A model generated the notes under the pieces. The model was not told the origin of the DNA and ran no database searches. It worked only from the letters and a program-made list of their open reading frames with translations. Both the position numbers and the translations under genes were made by a program. A DNA stretch of 64,000 nt. It comes from an uncultured Candidatus Saccharibacteria bacterium (GTDB lineage Bacteria > Patescibacteriota > Dojkabacteria > J137). The DNA is taken from positions 288,585 to 352,584 of the forward strand of contig CAZSKK010000002.1 in NCBI GenBank assembly GCA_964607415.1. Reading direction: 5' to 3'. Position 1 is the stretch's first letter, and each line of letters opens with the position of its first letter. This document shows, one piece after another, positions 17,199 to 19,979 of this stretch.

Positions 17199-19979
17199 AT
17201 GCTACCTAATGGTCCTTACAATTTCACCGAAGAAGAGGCACGGATTTTAGATTACTGGCTACAAAATGGTTTTTATAAACCTGAATACAACCCTAAGCAG
17301 GGTAGAGTAGTTAGTACTGAAGAAATGAAAAAAGATTCAAGAACTCCATGGAGTTTGATTTGCCCTCCACCAAATGCTTATGGAAGACCTCATATTGGAA
17401 ATCTTTCCGGATATGCTTATCAAGATGCCATGGCAAGATATGCAAGAATGCAAGGTAAAAAAGTTTTAATGATTCCTGGTAAAGACCATGCTGGGCTTGA
17501 AGGGGAAGGCGTGTTCGTACGTGATGTACTTGAAAAACAAGGTAGAAATAAATTTGATATGACGCGAGAAGAATTTTATAAAGAAATTTGGGACTTTAAC
17601 ATGCAAAATATGCAGCTAGCTTTAGCTGACGAAAAATCAATTGGACTTTCTGCAGACTTTGATAGAAATATTTTTACACTTGATCCCAAAATTGTTGATA
17701 CAGTTCTTTCTACATTTGTTCAAATGTATAACGAACAAATGATTTACAAAGGAGTGAGAATTGTAAATTGGGACCCAAAAGCCAGAAGTGCAGTTGCTGA
17801 TAATCAATGTATTAGAGAAGAACGCGATGGAACTTTATATACAATTAAATATCCGTTAGTTAGACTTCGATCTTGGAAACTAAATTTCAGAAAATCTGAA
17901 ATTTTAGAAAAAATTAGAACAGGCGAAAAAACAATTGAAACCAGAGCTTTAAATCCTGAAGAACCAGAAAGGTATTTTGGTGATATTAAAGCGGGAGATA
18001 TTTTAATTTGTATAGATAAATCTAGTGAAGAAAAAATGAGTGTTTATAAAAAAGTTAAGAAAGTTGAAAAGTTTGAAAGTTTAAAAGTTGCATTTGAAAA
18101 AGTAGAGTGGAGTAGAGTGGGGTTTGTACCAGAAAGTGCAGATGCGCTTTTGAATTCTTATAACGAAATGTTTGCTGGTTATGGAGATAAAATTAATCAA
18201 ACGGGTTTAGTTGCAATCGAACTTGAAGATCTAAATGATTCTGACTACATTACGATTGCAACAACAAGACCTGAGACAATTCCCGCTGATACTGCAATTG
18301 CAATGAATCCCGAAGACGAACGATATAAAGAATTTAGAAATTTTAAAGCAATAATTCCATTTACGGATAGGGAAGTCCCAATAATTTCTAGTTTCAGAGT
18401 TGATAAAGATTTTGGAACTGGATGCTTAAAGGTAACACCTGCACATGCGATTGAAGACTACTTAATCATGCAGGAATGGAACGGTAGTTTAGCAGAGAAC
18501 GGAGAGCTGATAGCTGATAGCCAAAAAATCTCCTACATCAACGTAATCGGCCAGGATCTGAAACTTTGCGGACCAGTTCCAGAAAAATACAAAGGCAGAA
18601 AATACAAGGAAGCTAAGTGTGACATGATTAATGAACTTACAGAAGCTGGACTTTTGATTAATGAAGAACACGTGAAACAAAACGTTTTAATTGCGGAAAG
18701 AACAAAAGCTCAAATTGAACCTTTAATATCTTCTCAGTGGTTTGTGGACATAGAAAAGATCAGAAAGCCAGTGATTGAAATGGTTAAAAGTGGAGAAGTT
18801 ACAATTCACCCAAAAAACATGGAACAAAAATTCTATTATTGGATGGAAAATTTAAGAGATTGGGCAATTTCTAGAAGTTTATGGTGGGGATACAGAATGC
18901 CAGTATGGTATGCAGGACCGATAGAGGAGAGGATAGATGCATATGGGAAGGTAGAAACGTGGATTCACCTCACCCCAACCCTCTCCTCAAAGGAGAGGGG
19001 GAACCATGCTGAAGGCATGGTGGGTGAGGCTGTTCCACTTGACCCAGCAAATGAAAACCACATGCGAGTTCAGCTTGAATCACCTGGAGAAAGGTGGATT
19101 CAGGACGAGAATGTTTTAGATACCTGGTTTAGTTCTGGCCAATGGCCGTATGCAACACTTGAAGCGTATGACTTAATGGATACCTTCTATCCAACAAGTG
19201 TTATGGAAACAGGTTTTGATATTTTGGAAAACTGGGTTTCTAGAATGATGATGTTCTCCTATATTAAACACAAACAAATTCCATTCAAAGATGTTTATCT
19301 TCATGGTTTAGTTTTAGGACCAGATGGACAAAAAATGAGTAAATCTCGTGGAAATCTTGTAAACATTGACGATGCAAAACGAGATTACGGTACTGACGCA
19401 ATAAGAATGGTTTACTTCTACCAAAATAAAGCTGGAAGTGATTACACAATGAGCAATGATAAGCTAAAGAATTTTAAGCAGTTTATGAATAAGATTTGGA
19501 ATGCATCCAGGTTTGTGTTAATGAACCAGCCTTCAGCTATCAGCCATCAGAATGAGATGCGAGCAGATAGCGCACAGCCGACAGCTGATAGCCTAAATTT
19601 AGAACTAAGTAAATTAATCATTACACATATCACTGACCTAAAAGAAAAAGTCACTAAAAACATCGAAAACTTTGAATTTGGCTATGCTACAGAAACACTT
19701 TACGAAAGTTTCTGGCACACCTTCTGTGACATATACCTAGAAGAGGCTAAAAAGCACCTTTACGCTCAAAAGAACAAAGAAACAGGTGAAATACTAAGTG
19801 AACCAGATGAAGCATCTAAAATCGAAATACAGCAAATTTTGATGTATACACTAAAAGAATATTTAAAAATGTTACATCCTTTTATTCCATTCATAACTCA
19901 ACGAATCTGGAACGAGGTTCCAAAGACTGATGAAGAGCACGAATGTTTAATGTATACTGGTTGGAATGGACAACCATAA
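17199..19979 (+). CDS. valS: Valine--tRNA ligase with two lineage-specific insertions (ASCH-like domain and a palindromic element)
   Basis: PPPNAYGRPHIGN (HIGH-type), KMSKSRGN, editing-domain TTRPET and GTGCLKVTPAH, anticodon-binding and coiled-coil C-terminus; 926 aa. Confidence 0.9.
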   Translation: MLPNGPYNFTEEEARILDYWLQNGFYKPEYNPKQGRVVSTEEMKKDSRTPWSLICPPPNAYGRPHIGNLSGYAYQDAMARYARMQGKKVLMIPGKDHAGLEGEGVFVRDVLEKQGRNKFDMTREEFYKEIWDFNMQNMQLALADEKSIGLSADFDRNIFTLDPKIVDTVLSTFVQMYNEQMIYKGVRIVNWDPKARSAVADNQCIREERDGTLYTIKYPLVRLRSWKLNFRKSEILEKIRTGEKTIETRALNPEEPERYFGDIKAGDILICIDKSSEEKMSVYKKVKKVEKFESLKVAFEKVEWSRVGFVPESADALLNSYNEMFAGYGDKINQTGLVAIELEDLNDSDYITIATTRPETIPADTAIAMNPEDERYKEFRNFKAIIPFTDREVPIISSFRVDKDFGTGCLKVTPAHAIEDYLIMQEWNGSLAENGELIADSQKISYINVIGQDLKLCGPVPEKYKGRKYKEAKCDMINELTEAGLLINEEHVKQNVLIAERTKAQIEPLISSQWFVDIEKIRKPVIEMVKSGEVTIHPKNMEQKFYYWMENLRDWAISRSLWWGYRMPVWYAGPIEERIDAYGKVETWIHLTPTLSSKERGNHAEGMVGEAVPLDPANENHMRVQLESPGERWIQDENVLDTWFSSGQWPYATLEAYDLMDTFYPTSVMETGFDILENWVSRMMMFSYIKHKQIPFKDVYLHGLVLGPDGQKMSKSRGNLVNIDDAKRDYGTDAIRMVYFYQNKAGSDYTMSNDKLKNFKQFMNKIWNASRFVLMNQPSAISHQNEMRADSAQPTADSLNLELSKLIITHITDLKEKVTKNIENFEFGYATETLYESFWHTFCDIYLEEAKKHLYAQKNKETGEILSEPDEASKIEIQQILMYTLKEYLKMLHPFIPFITQRIWNEVPKTDEEHECLMYTGWNGQP
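18966..19029. repeat. GGAGAGG-family palindromic mini-element inserted in-frame within valS
   Basis: CACCTCACCCC...GGGTGAGG outer arms, inner hairpins CCCTCTCCTCAAAGGAGAGGG and ACCATGCTGAAGGCATGGT; GC-rich; encodes an extra ~25 aa (HLTPTLSSKERGNHAEGMVGEAV) between conserved WY and DTWFSS ValRS blocks. Confidence 0.5.

What the first reader, a model, noticed from the sequence alone, without database searches (positions are those of the whole stretch)
17862..18245. ASCH (PUA-like) domain inserted into the editing (CP1) domain of ValRS
Between the conserved ValRS blocks YPLV and ITIATTRPET, E. coli has ~15 aa; this protein has ~125 aa. The insert (EILEKIRTGEKTIETRALNPEEPERYFGDIKAGDILICID...GLVAIELEDL) aligns motif-by-motif with ASCH proteins such as E. 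coli YqfB ([28 protein letters not shown]...QFYVIEFK): the G-x-KT-I-x-x-R beta-hairpin, the F-x-x-GD-hydrophobic strand and the terminal hydrophobic-I-E strand. ASCH domains are proposed RNA/modified-base binding modules, and their presence in an aaRS editing domain would be unusual.
Basis: partly seen in the sequence, partly recalled or inferred. Interest (0 to 1): 0.65.

Follow-up and report, generated by a model that had tools for sequence, protein, structure and literature searches.

The report
ASCH enzyme domain nested in ValRS
The valyl-tRNA synthetase of this Candidatus Dojkabacteria (CPR) bacterium carries a complete ASCH domain, with its catalytic motif intact, at the tip of a hairpin in its proofreading domain; the same module is embedded in several other tRNA synthetases of ultra-small bacteria and archaea, which makes a link between tRNA charging and tRNA de-modification testable.

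Summary
ValRS (window 17199-19979, 926 aa) has about 125 extra residues (aa 222-349) between T. thermophilus ValRS residues 203 and 207.

**It is an ASCH domain**
- Pfam ASCH scores 26 bits against a cut-off of 21.2.
- A profile of the module matches PDB ASCH proteins at E=6.5e-8.
- The AF2 model has pLDDT 95, and its top 21 Foldseek hits are all ASCH.
- The GxKxxExR motif (G242, K244, E247, R249) is almost fully conserved in 45 relatives.

**The host enzyme looks intact**
- HIGH, KMSKS and the CP1 editing motifs are present.
- The connectors to the module are 3 and 5 residues long and confidently modelled.

**The module is an optional, lineage-specific cassette**
- 44 of the 120 closest ValRS carry it and 50 have neither insert type.
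- One pair with 90% identical cores differs by its presence.

**Host range of this ASCH clade**
- Besides short stand-alone proteins, it is found almost only inside aaRSs of CPR bacteria and DPANN archaea.
- Hosts are LeuRS, ValRS (three sites), ThrRS-like, AlaRS and a class II Asp/Lys/Asn-type enzyme.
- NUDIX, GNAT, His-phosphatase or Ham1 domains are often embedded in the same proteins.

**Likely function (inferred)**
It is a tethered N4-acylcytidine-type amidohydrolase that uses the synthetase as its tRNA platform. I found no paper describing this arrangement.

The parts
17199..19979 (+). Complete valyl-tRNA synthetase gene (926 aa) that hosts the insert
   Evidence: ORF. NCBIfam valS equivalogs score above their cut-offs. 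The full-length AF2 model has pLDDT 90.6 and pTM 0.83. Its best PDB fold match is Tth ValRS 1gax, E=4.6e-55, TM 0.67/0.72.
17388..17402 (+). HIGH signature (PHIGN, aa 64-68), indicating an intact synthetic site
   Evidence: Read from the sequence. H65, G67 and N68 are invariant in 59 orthologues.
17808..17861 (+). Ascending strand of the first CP1 beta-hairpin (aa 204-221, ...GTLYTIKYPLV)
   Evidence: DSSP strand E204-221 in the full-length model. It aligns to Tth ValRS up to residue 203.
17868..18233 (+). ASCH domain proper (aa 224-345)
   Evidence: Pfam ASCH at 26.3 bits. Profile versus PDB hits 2z0t at E=6.5e-8. AF2 pLDDT is 95.4. Foldseek top hits are all ASCH.
17922..17945 (+). ASCH octapeptide GxKxxExR (GEKTIETR, aa 242-249), carrying the Lys/Glu catalytic dyad of the 'GKER' subgroup
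   Evidence: Across 45 modules: K244 in 44, E247 as E in 40 and D in 5, R249 in all 45. The dyad's role comes from mutagenesis in bioRxiv 10.64898/2026.02.27.708502.
17943..17984 (+). Clade-specific loop RALNPEEPERYFGD (aa 249-262), the signature of the aaRS-embedded ASCH clade
   Evidence: Near-invariant A, L, N, P, E and F. The motif retrieved 76 genomic loci, almost all inside aaRS genes.
18246..18278 (+). Descending hairpin strand plus the Thr-rich editing peptide (YITIATTRPET, aa 350-360)
   Evidence: DSSP strand E350-355. It aligns to Tth 209-219, which includes R216 and T219. A354, T355, R357 and T360 are invariant.
18411..18461 (+). CP1 editing-site block FGTGCLKVTPAHAIEDY (aa 405-421), indicating the editing pocket is retained
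   Evidence: G406, G408, K411, T413, P414, A415, H416 and D420 are invariant in 59 orthologues. The block aligns to the Tth 'DFGTGALKVTPAHDPLDY' block.
19332..19346 (+). KMSKS signature (aa 712-716)
   Evidence: Read from the sequence. K712, M713, K715 and S716 are invariant and S714 is nearly invariant.

Best explanation
The segment is a genuine ASCH (PUA-like beta-barrel) domain of the glutamate-type 'GKER' subgroup. It is nested at the turn of the first beta-hairpin of the CP1 editing domain of an otherwise complete ValRS from a Candidatus Dojkabacteria (CPR) bacterium. ASCH's first and last strands lie side by side, so the two hairpin strands of CP1 run almost straight into them through connectors of 3 and 5 residues. 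The barrel therefore sits as a short-tethered knob about 12 residues upstream of the editing-pocket residues R357 and T360. It is an optional cassette that has been gained, lost or swapped repeatedly among close ValRS relatives. It belongs to an ASCH clade that, apart from short stand-alone proteins, lives almost exclusively inside aminoacyl-tRNA synthetases of CPR bacteria and DPANN archaea. Proposed mechanism (inferred, not shown): the module is a catalytically competent N4-acylcytidine-type amidohydrolase, with K244 and E247 as the dyad. It has no nucleic-acid-binding appendage of its own and uses the synthetase as its tRNA-docking platform. On that platform it would de-acylate (for example de-acetylate ac4C or a related N-acyl group) tRNA that visits the enzyme, without being required for aminoacylation or editing. 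Shown: identity, fold, motif conservation, insertion geometry at secondary-structure level, patchy distribution and aaRS-restricted host range. Inferred: catalytic activity, substrate, and that it acts on synthetase-bound tRNA.
For: Identity: Pfam ASCH above its cut-off, profile hits to solved ASCH proteins at E=6.5e-8 to 3.2e-6 end to end, and an AF2 model (pLDDT 95.4) whose top 21 Foldseek hits are all ASCH, including the YqfB-ac4C complex. Catalytic motif under selection: K 44/45, E/D 45/45 and R 45/45, plus invariant D267, Y328 and G336, although the modules are only 32-57% identical to the window's. Lys and Glu of this octapeptide are essential for tRNA ac4C removal in TthASCH, EOLA1 and TRIP4, and all 19 tested ASCH proteins removed ac4C from tRNA in vitro. 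Need for a platform: isolated catalytic ASCH domains showed no detectable tRNA binding, and a fused HTH supplied it. The window module has net charge -2. Tight tether: strand E204-221, 3 residues, ASCH beta1 E225-230 ... ASCH last strand E337-344, 5 residues, strand E350-355, with block-mean pLDDT 84-96. Host intact: HIGH, KMSKS and CP1 motifs are invariant. Host range: of 76 genomic loci carrying the clade motif, 53 are in LeuRS (one fixed site), 15 in ValRS (three sites) and 1 in a ThrRS-like enzyme; the 7 short ORFs could not be assigned to a host, and no locus was assigned to a non-aaRS host. Among library representatives the embedded hosts are LeuRS, ValRS, AlaRS and a class II D/K/N-type aaRS. 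Optional cassette: 44 of 120 orthologues have it, 50 have neither insert type, its distribution on the ValRS tree is patchy, and P0014 versus P0029 cores are 90% identical while differing by the module.
Against: No activity was or could be measured here. Some GKER-type ASCH proteins (ZmASCH, TRIP4) do not hydrolyse free ac4C. I have no evidence that Dojkabacteria tRNAs carry ac4C or that the genome encodes a writer such as TmcA or TmcAL. The only characterised bacterial ac4C site is position 34 of tRNA-Met; by my own reading of ValRS architecture (not measured) that position is far from CP1. Fifty of the 120 closest orthologues have neither insert type, so the module is dispensable for ValRS function. 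Other enzymes embedded in the same aaRSs include guanylate kinase and Ham1, which act on free nucleotides and fit a salvage or hitch-hiker reading better. The window's own module has T335 where 41 of 45 have Asn. I could not obtain model coordinates, so whether the ASCH pocket faces the tRNA path is unknown.
Confidence: 0.5

Rival explanations
1. Salvage or house-cleaning enzyme that merely hitch-hikes. The ASCH is an ac4C-to-cytidine nucleoside amidohydrolase like YqfB, serving pyrimidine salvage in a symbiont that cannot make nucleotides. It is embedded in an essential, constitutively expressed gene for expression or retention, with no functional coupling to tRNA-Val or to ValRS.
For: The catalytic motif is conserved. 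Stand-alone 105-135-aa versions of the same clade exist, 96 of 146 representatives. One of them lies next to a stand-alone His_Phos_1 gene. Enzymes co-embedded in CPR aaRSs include Ham1/ITPase, guanylate kinase, NUDIX and His phosphatase, a plausible nucleotide salvage or sanitation set. The module is optional and cassette-like. YqfB acts on the free nucleoside (PMC6972931).
Against: If the host were only an expression vehicle, many large essential proteins should serve. Yet every locus that could be assigned to a host is an aaRS, from at least five families of both classes and at least six distinct sites. The connectors are short and rigid rather than long and flexible.
Confidence: 0.2
2. Non-catalytic RNA-binding handle. 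Like PUA domains, the ASCH barrel gives ValRS an extra contact with tRNA-Val (acceptor arm or elbow). It might compensate for the missing C-terminal coiled-coil arm of Dojkabacteria ValRS.
For: ASCH belongs to the PUA-like superfamily of RNA-associated domains (PMC7641849). This ValRS lacks the Val_tRNA-synt_C arm. The module sits on CP1, which handles the tRNA 3' end. All classifiable hosts are tRNA-binding enzymes.
Against: Insert-less orthologues (for example P0016, 765 aa) also lack the coiled-coil arm, so there is no compensation pattern. The module's net charge is -2, with a mean of -1.2 across the ValRS-embedded copies. Conservation is concentrated on the catalytic octapeptide and pocket loop rather than on a basic surface. 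Isolated catalytic ASCH domains showed no detectable tRNA binding.
Confidence: 0.15
3. Acyl-amide deblocking of the acceptor end. The ASCH amidohydrolase, sitting next to the editing pocket, removes N-acyl groups from N-acetyl-aminoacyl-tRNA (for example products of GNAT toxins) or from CCA-end cytidines. This would make it part of an aaRS-borne tRNA repair kit together with NUDIX, His-phosphatase, Ser-hydrolase and GNAT modules.
For: The module is about 12 residues from editing residues R357 and T360. ASCH co-occurs with GNAT in the same polypeptides: GNAT-ASCH-GNAT in a ThrRS-like enzyme, ASCH+GNAT proteins P0149 and P0155, and ValRS carrying both ASCH and GNAT. ASCH accompanies GNAT-EVE toxin-antitoxin-like operons (PMC7641849).
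Against: This is entirely inferential. No ASCH has been shown to act on an aminoacyl amide. The window protein has no GNAT, NUDIX or phosphatase partner module. Guanylate kinase and Ham1 inserts do not fit a tRNA-repair theme.
Confidence: 0.1
4. Artefact, or not a real domain: an assembly chimera, a frameshifted neighbouring gene, an intein-like element, or a generic low-complexity CP1 extension.
For: GC content dips to 27-31% over the insert against about 36-39% in most of the rest of the gene.
Against: There is one continuous ORF with ValRS sequence on both sides in frame. The identical protein occurs on 6 independent contigs. Forty-three homologous inserts occur at the same site in other ValRS. 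The folded domain is modelled with high confidence. There is no Hint/intein Pfam hit, no Cys/Ser/Thr at the N-terminal junction and no His-Asn at the C-terminal junction. No flanking repeats were found.
Confidence: 0.01

Closest known systems
Stand-alone archaeal ASCH proteins PH0355 (2Z0T), PF0455 (1S04) and PF0470 (1XNE)
   Same: They are the best sequence-profile and fold matches. The profile hit to PH0355 has E=6.5e-8 and covers the module end to end (positions 9-122 against residues 8-107), and the Foldseek TM-scores are 0.71/0.79. They share the topology (beta1, helix, GxKxxExR strand, GD strand, helical excursion, final strand) and the same Glu-type octapeptide.
   Different: They are free 109-113-aa proteins. 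The window module is nested inside another enzyme and carries the clade-specific RALNPEEPERYFG loop. The function of those structural-genomics proteins was not established in the entries.
E. coli YqfB and T. thermophilus TthASCH (ac4C amidohydrolases / tRNA ac4C erasers)
   Same: They share the ASCH barrel (Foldseek to 9kyf/9kyh at E about 1e-5 to 1e-4, TM 0.58-0.75). Lys and Arg of the octapeptide are at equivalent positions. The Lys-Glu dyad matches that of TthASCH.
   Different: YqfB has Thr (GKTR) where the window has Glu (GKER). Sequence identity is only 18-20%. Both are stand-alone proteins. Activity of the ValRS module is untested.
Archaeal ASCH-AAAD_HTH fusions (Afu3ASCH, Pku4ASCH; bioRxiv 10.64898/2026.02.27.708502)
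   Same: The logic is the same: a catalytic ASCH barrel that showed no detectable tRNA binding on its own is joined to a module that supplies tRNA affinity.
   Different: There the partner is a small C-terminal HTH added end to end. Here the partner would be a whole synthetase, and the ASCH is nested inside one of its hairpins.
Canonical bacterial ValRS (T. thermophilus 1GAX; E. coli ValS)
   Same: The Rossmann core, HIGH and KMSKS signatures, CP1 editing domain with its Thr-rich and GTG/D motifs, and the anticodon-binding helical domain are all shared.
   Different: Thermus has 3 residues at the hairpin turn, and E. coli about a dozen (from my own knowledge of that sequence, not checked here), where this enzyme has about 125. 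This enzyme also lacks the C-terminal coiled-coil tRNA-binding arm.
aaRSs with extra catalytic domains, e.g. NCBIfam NF040702 'isoleucine--tRNA ligase, N-acetyltransferase domain-containing'
   Same: A class Ia synthetase carries an additional small enzyme domain. This family is listed in NCBIfam, and many Dojkabacteria ValRS carry GNAT, His_Phos_1 or Ser_hydrolase inserts.
   Different: The domain (ASCH) and the site (CP1 hairpin tip) are different. I found no curated family or paper for ValRS+ASCH, only an automatic JGI product name 'valyl-tRNA synthetase/ASC-1-like (ASCH) protein' for P0037.

Membership tests
ASCH domain (Pfam PF04266, PUA-like superfamily) | Match to the family HMM above the curated gathering score | tested here: met
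   The insert alone scores 26.0-26.3 bits against a cut-off of 21.2 and covers profile positions 6-101 of 103. In the full-length protein the score is 21.6. Of 45 homologous modules, 23 hit individually at E<0.01.
ASCH domain (Pfam PF04266, PUA-like superfamily) | PUA-like beta-barrel fold superposable on solved ASCH structures | tested here: met
   The AF2 model has pLDDT 95.4 and pTM 0.87. The Foldseek top 21 PDB hits are all ASCH proteins, with probability 0.97-1.00 and TM up to 0.71/0.79. EVE and YTH domains appear only at E>0.1.
ASCH domain (Pfam PF04266, PUA-like superfamily) | Conserved octapeptide GxKxxExR | tested here: met
   The window has GEKTIETR at aa 242-249. Across 45 modules: G in 34, K in 44, E in 40 plus D in 5, R in all 45.
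ASCH domain (Pfam PF04266, PUA-like superfamily) | N4-acylcytidine amidohydrolase / tRNA ac4C deacetylase activity | not testable with these tools
   This needs an enzyme assay. Only the catalytic Lys/Glu dyad can be seen.
YqfB-type (GKTR) amidohydrolases | Threonine at the sixth octapeptide position (YqfB Thr24) | tested here: not met
   The window has Glu247 and all 45 relatives have E or D. It therefore belongs to the GKER subgroup, not the YqfB subgroup.
Valine--tRNA ligase (class Ia aaRS) | Equivalog HMM score above the curated cut-off | tested here: met
   NF004349 PRK05729 scores 706.3 against 704, and TIGR00422 scores 664.6 against 612.1.
Valine--tRNA ligase (class Ia aaRS) | HIGH and KMSKS signatures and CP1 editing motifs (Thr-rich TxRPET, GTG, conserved Asp) | tested here: met
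   PHIGN at aa 64-68, KMSKS at 712-716, ATTRPET at 354-360 and FGTG...TPAH..D420 are present. All these positions except S714 (nearly invariant) are invariant in 59 orthologues.
Valine--tRNA ligase (class Ia aaRS) | C-terminal coiled-coil tRNA-binding arm (PF10458) typical of bacterial ValRS | tested here: not met
   There is no PF10458 hit. The protein ends 6 residues after the anticodon-binding domain, and the PRK05729 match stops at profile position 695 of 860. This is a lineage trait shared with insert-less orthologues.
Inteins / Hint-domain protein-splicing elements | Hint fold, a Cys/Ser/Thr nucleophile at the N-terminal junction and His-Asn plus a nucleophile at the C-terminal junction | tested here: not met
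   No Hint, intein or LAGLIDADG Pfam hit was found. The junctions are ...PLV|RLRSW and ...ELEDL|NDSDY. The fold is ASCH.

The most novel reading that the evidence does not exclude
CPR bacteria and DPANN archaea use their aminoacyl-tRNA synthetases as docking platforms for a modular set of embedded hydrolases and transferases: ASCH amidohydrolase, NUDIX, histidine phosphatase, serine hydrolase and GNAT. These would act in cis on the tRNA being charged. They would erase N-acyl marks, or repair or deblock acceptor ends damaged by toxins or carried on host-derived tRNA. The ValRS CP1-ASCH module would be one element of a previously undescribed synthetase-coupled tRNA repair and de-modification system whose cassettes are exchanged between synthetases and even between the two domains of life.
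Probability: 0.12. Interest if true: 0.85.

Novelty: new variant of a known kind. Interest (0 to 1): 0.62.

Why it matters
ASCH proteins have only recently been reported as enzymes (ac4C amidohydrolases) and as candidate tRNA ac4C erasers. How they find tRNA in cells, and when they act, remain open questions.

A natural construct with an intact ASCH catalytic module built into the proofreading domain of a tRNA synthetase gives a direct test of coupling between tRNA charging and tRNA de-modification. The same module recurs in LeuRS, ThrRS-like, AlaRS and Asp/Lys/Asn-type synthetases of ultra-small symbionts. The comparison needed is wild-type, ASCH-deleted and dyad-mutant enzymes.

The result also shows that aaRS genes of CPR and DPANN organisms have defined hot spots. 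These hot spots accept and exchange whole enzyme domains, which bears on how reduced genomes package functions and on annotating these very long synthetases.

If the module proves to be only a passenger enzyme, it is still a clean natural example of nested domain insertion at a beta-hairpin tip.

Tried and rejected
- **Word-indexed search with the insert alone.** It returned only 6 proteins and missed even the self-hit. I did not take this as rarity. The exhaustive profile search and the orthologue survey showed many relatives.
- **Second copy of the module in the window.** tblastn found none.
- **DNA-level signs of a mobile element around 17700-18400.** I found only short, weak direct and inverted repeats that do not coincide with the junctions. 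A modest GC dip to 27-31% is not decisive.
- **Intein or splicing element.** Rejected on junction residues, the absence of a Hint hit, and the ASCH fold.
- **Compensation for the missing C-terminal coiled-coil arm.** Rejected because insert-less orthologues lack the arm too.
- **Single ancient gain with vertical descent.** This is not supported as the sole history. Presence is patchy on the NJ tree. A pair with 90% identical cores differs by the module. P0014's module is closer to those of distant ValRS (54% against 42-43%). Core and module identities correlate weakly (Spearman 0.28). The tree is an unbootstrapped NJ tree, so the number of gains and losses is not established.
- **Identity of the second site-A module ('T2').** It has no Pfam or PDB match. 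The only hint is a weak GNAT-like hit at E=0.09, so it remains unresolved.
- **Docking geometry of ASCH on CP1 and its distance to tRNA.** This could not be assessed because the structure tools return no coordinates.
- **Literature searches.** The combinations tried were ASCH + ValRS, ASCH + LeuRS, Dojkabacteria + tRNA synthetase, and CPR/Patescibacteria + aaRS + insertion/NUDIX. None returned a description of this architecture.

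
Full report
**1. What is in the sequence**

Window 17199..19979 (+) is one uninterrupted ORF of 926 aa. It is a valyl-tRNA synthetase.
- It matches NCBIfam equivalogs PRK05729 (706.3 bits, cut-off 704) and TIGR00422 (664.6 bits, cut-off 612.1).
- It matches Pfam tRNA-synt_1 and Anticodon_1.
- Its closest solved relative is T. thermophilus ValRS 1GAX, at E=1.1e-112 by sequence. By fold of the full-length AF2 model the match is E=4.6e-55 with TM 0.67/0.72.

The finding's coordinates (17862-18245) are aa 222-349. 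Against Thermus ValRS the alignment breaks exactly there: query 45-219 aligns to Tth 30-203 and query 348-573 to Tth 207-418. About 128 residues therefore replace a 3-residue hairpin turn.

The identical protein is encoded on six contigs from independent sequencing runs, plus a 445-kb NCBI contig. The arrangement is real.

The nearest named relatives are Candidatus Dojkabacteria / candidate division WS6, a CPR lineage.

**2. The insert is an ASCH domain**

- Alone it hits Pfam ASCH (PF04266) at 26 bits (cut-off 21.2), covering profile positions 6-101 of 103.
- I collected 44 homologous modules and aligned them with it (A1). The resulting profile hits the solved ASCH proteins PH0355 (E=6.5e-8), PF0455 (2.4e-6) and PF0470 (3.2e-6) end to end.
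- AlphaFold2 on that alignment gives pLDDT 95.4 and pTM 0.87.
- Foldseek against the PDB returns only ASCH proteins in the first 21 places. These include PH0355 (TM 0.71/0.79), the E. coli YqfB ac4C amidohydrolase and ZmASCH. EVE and YTH domains follow far behind.
- The family's octapeptide GxKxxExR is present as G242-E-K244-T-I-E247-T-R249. Across the 45 modules K is kept in 44, E/D in all 45 and R in all 45. D267, Y328 and G336 are also invariant.
- With Glu at the sixth motif position the module belongs to the 'GKER' subgroup, not the YqfB 'GKTR' subgroup. In GKER proteins (TthASCH, EOLA1, TRIP4) the Lys and Glu are essential for removing ac4C from tRNA (bioRxiv 10.64898/2026.02.27.708502).

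**3. How it sits in ValRS**

The full-length AF2 model (59-sequence alignment; pLDDT 90.6, pTM 0.83) predicts this order of elements:
- a long strand E204-221 (...GTLYTIKYPLV)
- a 3-residue link
- ASCH beta1 (E225-230)
- the ASCH body
- the last ASCH strand (E337-344)
- a 5-residue link
- strand E350-355 (ITIATT)

This region has block-mean pLDDT 84-96. ASCH's terminal strands are neighbours, so the CP1 hairpin is in effect prolonged into the barrel. The tether is short and confidently modelled.

The descending strand leads straight into the Thr-rich editing peptide ATTRPET (aa 354-360). Its R357 and T360 align with Thermus R216 and T219. From my own knowledge of the ValRS editing-domain literature, those are editing-pocket residues.

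HIGH (PHIGN), KMSKS, the Thr-rich peptide and the FGTG...TPAH...D420 block are all present. All of these residues except S714 (nearly invariant) are invariant in 59 orthologues. Both the synthetic and editing sites therefore look intact. I could not obtain coordinates, so the orientation of the ASCH pocket relative to CP1 and tRNA is not established.

**4. Distribution among ValRS orthologues**

The 120 closest ValRS range from 756 to 1431 aa. I aligned each to an insert-less orthologue and classified the inserts with HMMs.

| Content at the CP1 hairpin (site A) | Number of 120 |
|---|---|
| ASCH module only | 39 |
| ASCH plus a second, unrelated ~110-aa module ('T2') | 5 |
| T2 only | 26 |
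| Neither (three of these have other extra sequence there) | 50 |

A second hot spot, site B, lies just after the W-ISR..WWG..P.WY motif. In 27 orthologues it holds GNAT, His_Phos_1 or Ser_hydrolase domains. The window protein has none there.

On an NJ tree of 724 core columns, ASCH-bearing and insert-less enzymes are interleaved, while T2 marks one clade. P0014 (with ASCH) and P0029/P0027 (without) have 90% identical cores. In P0029/P0027 the hairpin tip is a different segment of about 26 aa, so the difference is a cassette replacement, not a clean deletion.

P0014's module is closer to those of distant ValRS (54% to P0051, core 58%) than to those of its nearest ASCH-bearing cores (43% and 42% to P0012 and P0010, cores 74% and 72%). 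Core and module identities correlate weakly (Spearman 0.28).

Together this points to repeated gain, loss or exchange. The tree is unbootstrapped, so I do not claim a count of events.

**5. Where else this ASCH clade lives**

An exhaustive profile search of 1.84 billion representatives found 425 hits (59 at E<1e-10). I classified the 146 newly listed ones.

| Class | Number of 146 |
|---|---|
| Stand-alone, 160 aa or shorter | 96 |
| Embedded in an aaRS (14 LeuRS, 9 ValRS, 1 AlaRS, 1 class II Asp/Lys/Asn-type) | 25 |
| Other proteins over 160 aa, not matching the aaRS references (some with tandem ASCH) | 25 |

Pfam scans of the embedded hosts show further enzyme domains in the same polypeptides:
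- NUDIX or Ser_hydrolase in LeuRS
- Ham1 in one LeuRS
- His_Phos_1 next to ASCH at ValRS site B
- guanylate kinase, Ham1 and Ser_hydrolase in an AlaRS

A scan of one genome per species for the clade motif [ED][TVI]RALNP[ED]E gave 76 loci. They come from many CPR phyla and from DPANN archaea (Woese-, Nano- and Pacearchaeota). Their hosts are as follows.

| Host | Number of 76 loci |
|---|---|
| LeuRS, one fixed site | 53 |
| ValRS (8 at site A, 6 at site B, 1 at a third site) | 15 |
| ThrRS-like class II enzyme with GNAT-ASCH-GNAT nested | 1 |
| Short ORFs that could not be assigned to a host | 7 |

No locus was assigned to a non-aaRS host. The motif scan is biased towards this clade by design. 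The result speaks to this clade, not to ASCH domains in general.

**6. Mechanism**

*Shown:*
- a folded ASCH barrel with an intact, selectively maintained catalytic octapeptide
- a tight tether on the editing domain of an otherwise complete ValRS
- dispensability: 50 of the 120 closest orthologues have neither insert type
- a host range confined to aaRSs of both classes

*From the literature:*
- YqfB hydrolyses ac4C (PMC6972931).
- All 19 tested ASCH proteins, Thr- and Glu-type, from bacteria, archaea and humans, removed ac4C from tRNA in vitro.
- Isolated catalytic ASCH domains showed no detectable tRNA binding and rely on an appended HTH for it.

The window module has net charge -2 and no appendage.

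*My inference:* the module is an N4-acylcytidine-type amidohydrolase for which the synthetase supplies tRNA proximity. It acts on tRNA that visits ValRS and is not needed for charging or editing.

*Weak points:*
- No assay was possible.
- I have no evidence for ac4C or its writers in Dojkabacteria.
- The only characterised bacterial ac4C site (position 34 of tRNA-Met) is not on tRNA-Val, and by my own reading of ValRS architecture (not measured) it is not near CP1.
- Co-embedded guanylate kinase and Ham1 point instead to free-nucleotide chemistry.

*Rivals:* a salvage enzyme hitch-hiking on an essential gene (0.2), a non-catalytic tRNA handle (0.15), an acyl-amide deblocking or repair function at the acceptor end (0.1), and an artefact (about 0.01).

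**7. Novelty**

ASCH and ValRS are both well known, and aaRSs with extra domains are known. One example is the NCBIfam model for a GNAT-containing IleRS. An automatic JGI product name already reads 'valyl-tRNA synthetase/ASC-1-like (ASCH) protein'.

I found no paper describing ASCH in any aaRS, or these CPR/DPANN insertion hot spots. The searchable library lacks most subscription-journal papers, so prior description cannot be excluded.

I rate it a new variant of a known kind, of moderate to high interest. It offers a ready-made natural test of coupling between tRNA charging and ASCH-type de-modification.

Noticed in passing
window 18867-18911 (aa 557-571, ISRSLWWGYRMPVWY) and the following loop aa 573-632; orthologues P0015, P0017, P0034, P0035, P0045, P0047, P0050, P0063 and others: There is a second insertion hot spot ('site B') in Dojkabacteria/CPR ValRS, directly after the W-ISR..WWG..P.WY motif. 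Twenty-seven of 120 orthologues carry inserts there, including GNAT, His_Phos_1 and Ser_hydrolase domains, and other CPR ValRS carry ASCH at this site. The window protein has only a longer loop there than Thermus (59 aa against 27), with pLDDT<50 at aa 595-608. The fixed ASCH site in LeuRS follows the same kind of motif (SRQRYWGEPFP in P0001 and P0004).
   Followed up: partly
orthologues P0053, P0055, P0057, P0058, P0064, P0066, P0068, P0073 and others (same hairpin site as window 17862-18245): A different ~110-aa module ('T2', consensus ...EPE.KAIELK..Y..K...W......G..V.GIGY......EV.G.VIGIQMRLDG.FRLVV...) occupies the same CP1 hairpin in a monophyletic ValRS clade. It has no Pfam or PDB match, only a weak GNAT-like hit at E=0.09. 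Five enzymes carry ASCH and T2 in tandem. P0096 has a DUF559/Vsr-like endonuclease domain nested inside T2.
   Followed up: partly
window 19959-19979 (ValRS C-terminus): This ValRS ends 6 residues after the anticodon-binding domain. It lacks the C-terminal coiled-coil tRNA-binding arm (PF10458) of typical bacterial ValRS. The insert-less 756-790-aa orthologues are also too short to carry it.
   Followed up: partly
L011, L013, L016, L019, L020, L023-L026 and others; DPANN loci L034, L045, L052, L053, L072, L076: LeuRS of many CPR phyla and of DPANN archaea (Woese-, Nano- and Pacearchaeota) carry the same ASCH clade at one fixed site, often with a NUDIX domain upstream of it. This suggests the module or the whole gene has moved between the two domains of life.
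   Followed up: partly
L027 (MAG labelled Limisphaerales), 1141-aa ORF: A ThrRS-like class II synthetase (tRNA-synt_2b + HGTP_anticodon) has GNAT-ASCH-GNAT nested after an HxxxH editing-type motif that I read from the sequence.
   Followed up: partly
P0154 (1287 aa), P0146 (1330 aa), L047: An AlaRS carries ASCH, guanylate kinase, Ham1-like and Ser_hydrolase domains. A LeuRS carries NUDIX, ASCH and Ham1. A ValRS carries Ham1 near its N-terminus and ASCH at a third site. Several nucleotide-metabolism enzymes are thus embedded in single synthetase polypeptides.
   Followed up: no
L002 5001-5393 and 5674-6273: A stand-alone 130-aa member of the same ASCH clade (P0002) lies next to a stand-alone His_Phos_1 gene. 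His_Phos_1 is one of the domain types also found embedded in ValRS.
   Followed up: no
window 16757-17098 (+): A 113-aa '23S rRNA-intervening sequence protein' (PF05635) gene sits directly upstream of ValRS. It is syntenic with ValRS on three other contigs (L003-L005).
   Followed up: no
window 19966-21159 (+): The downstream 397-aa membrane protein ORF overlaps the ValRS stop by 14 nt, which suggests co-transcription or translational coupling. The equivalent gene on related contigs has an MFS_1 hit.
   Followed up: no
window 58075-60006 (-): A 643-aa ORF has Radical_SAM and Radical_SAM_C hits only from residue 319 onward. I read this pairing as Elp3-like, from my own knowledge. The N-terminal ~300 residues have no Pfam match.
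   Followed up: no
window 36729-42611 (-): A 1960-aa ORF has only a CarboxypepD_reg-like domain recognised. It may be a giant surface protein, which I believe is common in CPR genomes (my own knowledge).
   Followed up: no
window 17799-18248: GC content falls to 27-31% over the ASCH-coding segment, against about 36-39% in most of the rest of the ValRS gene.
   Followed up: partly
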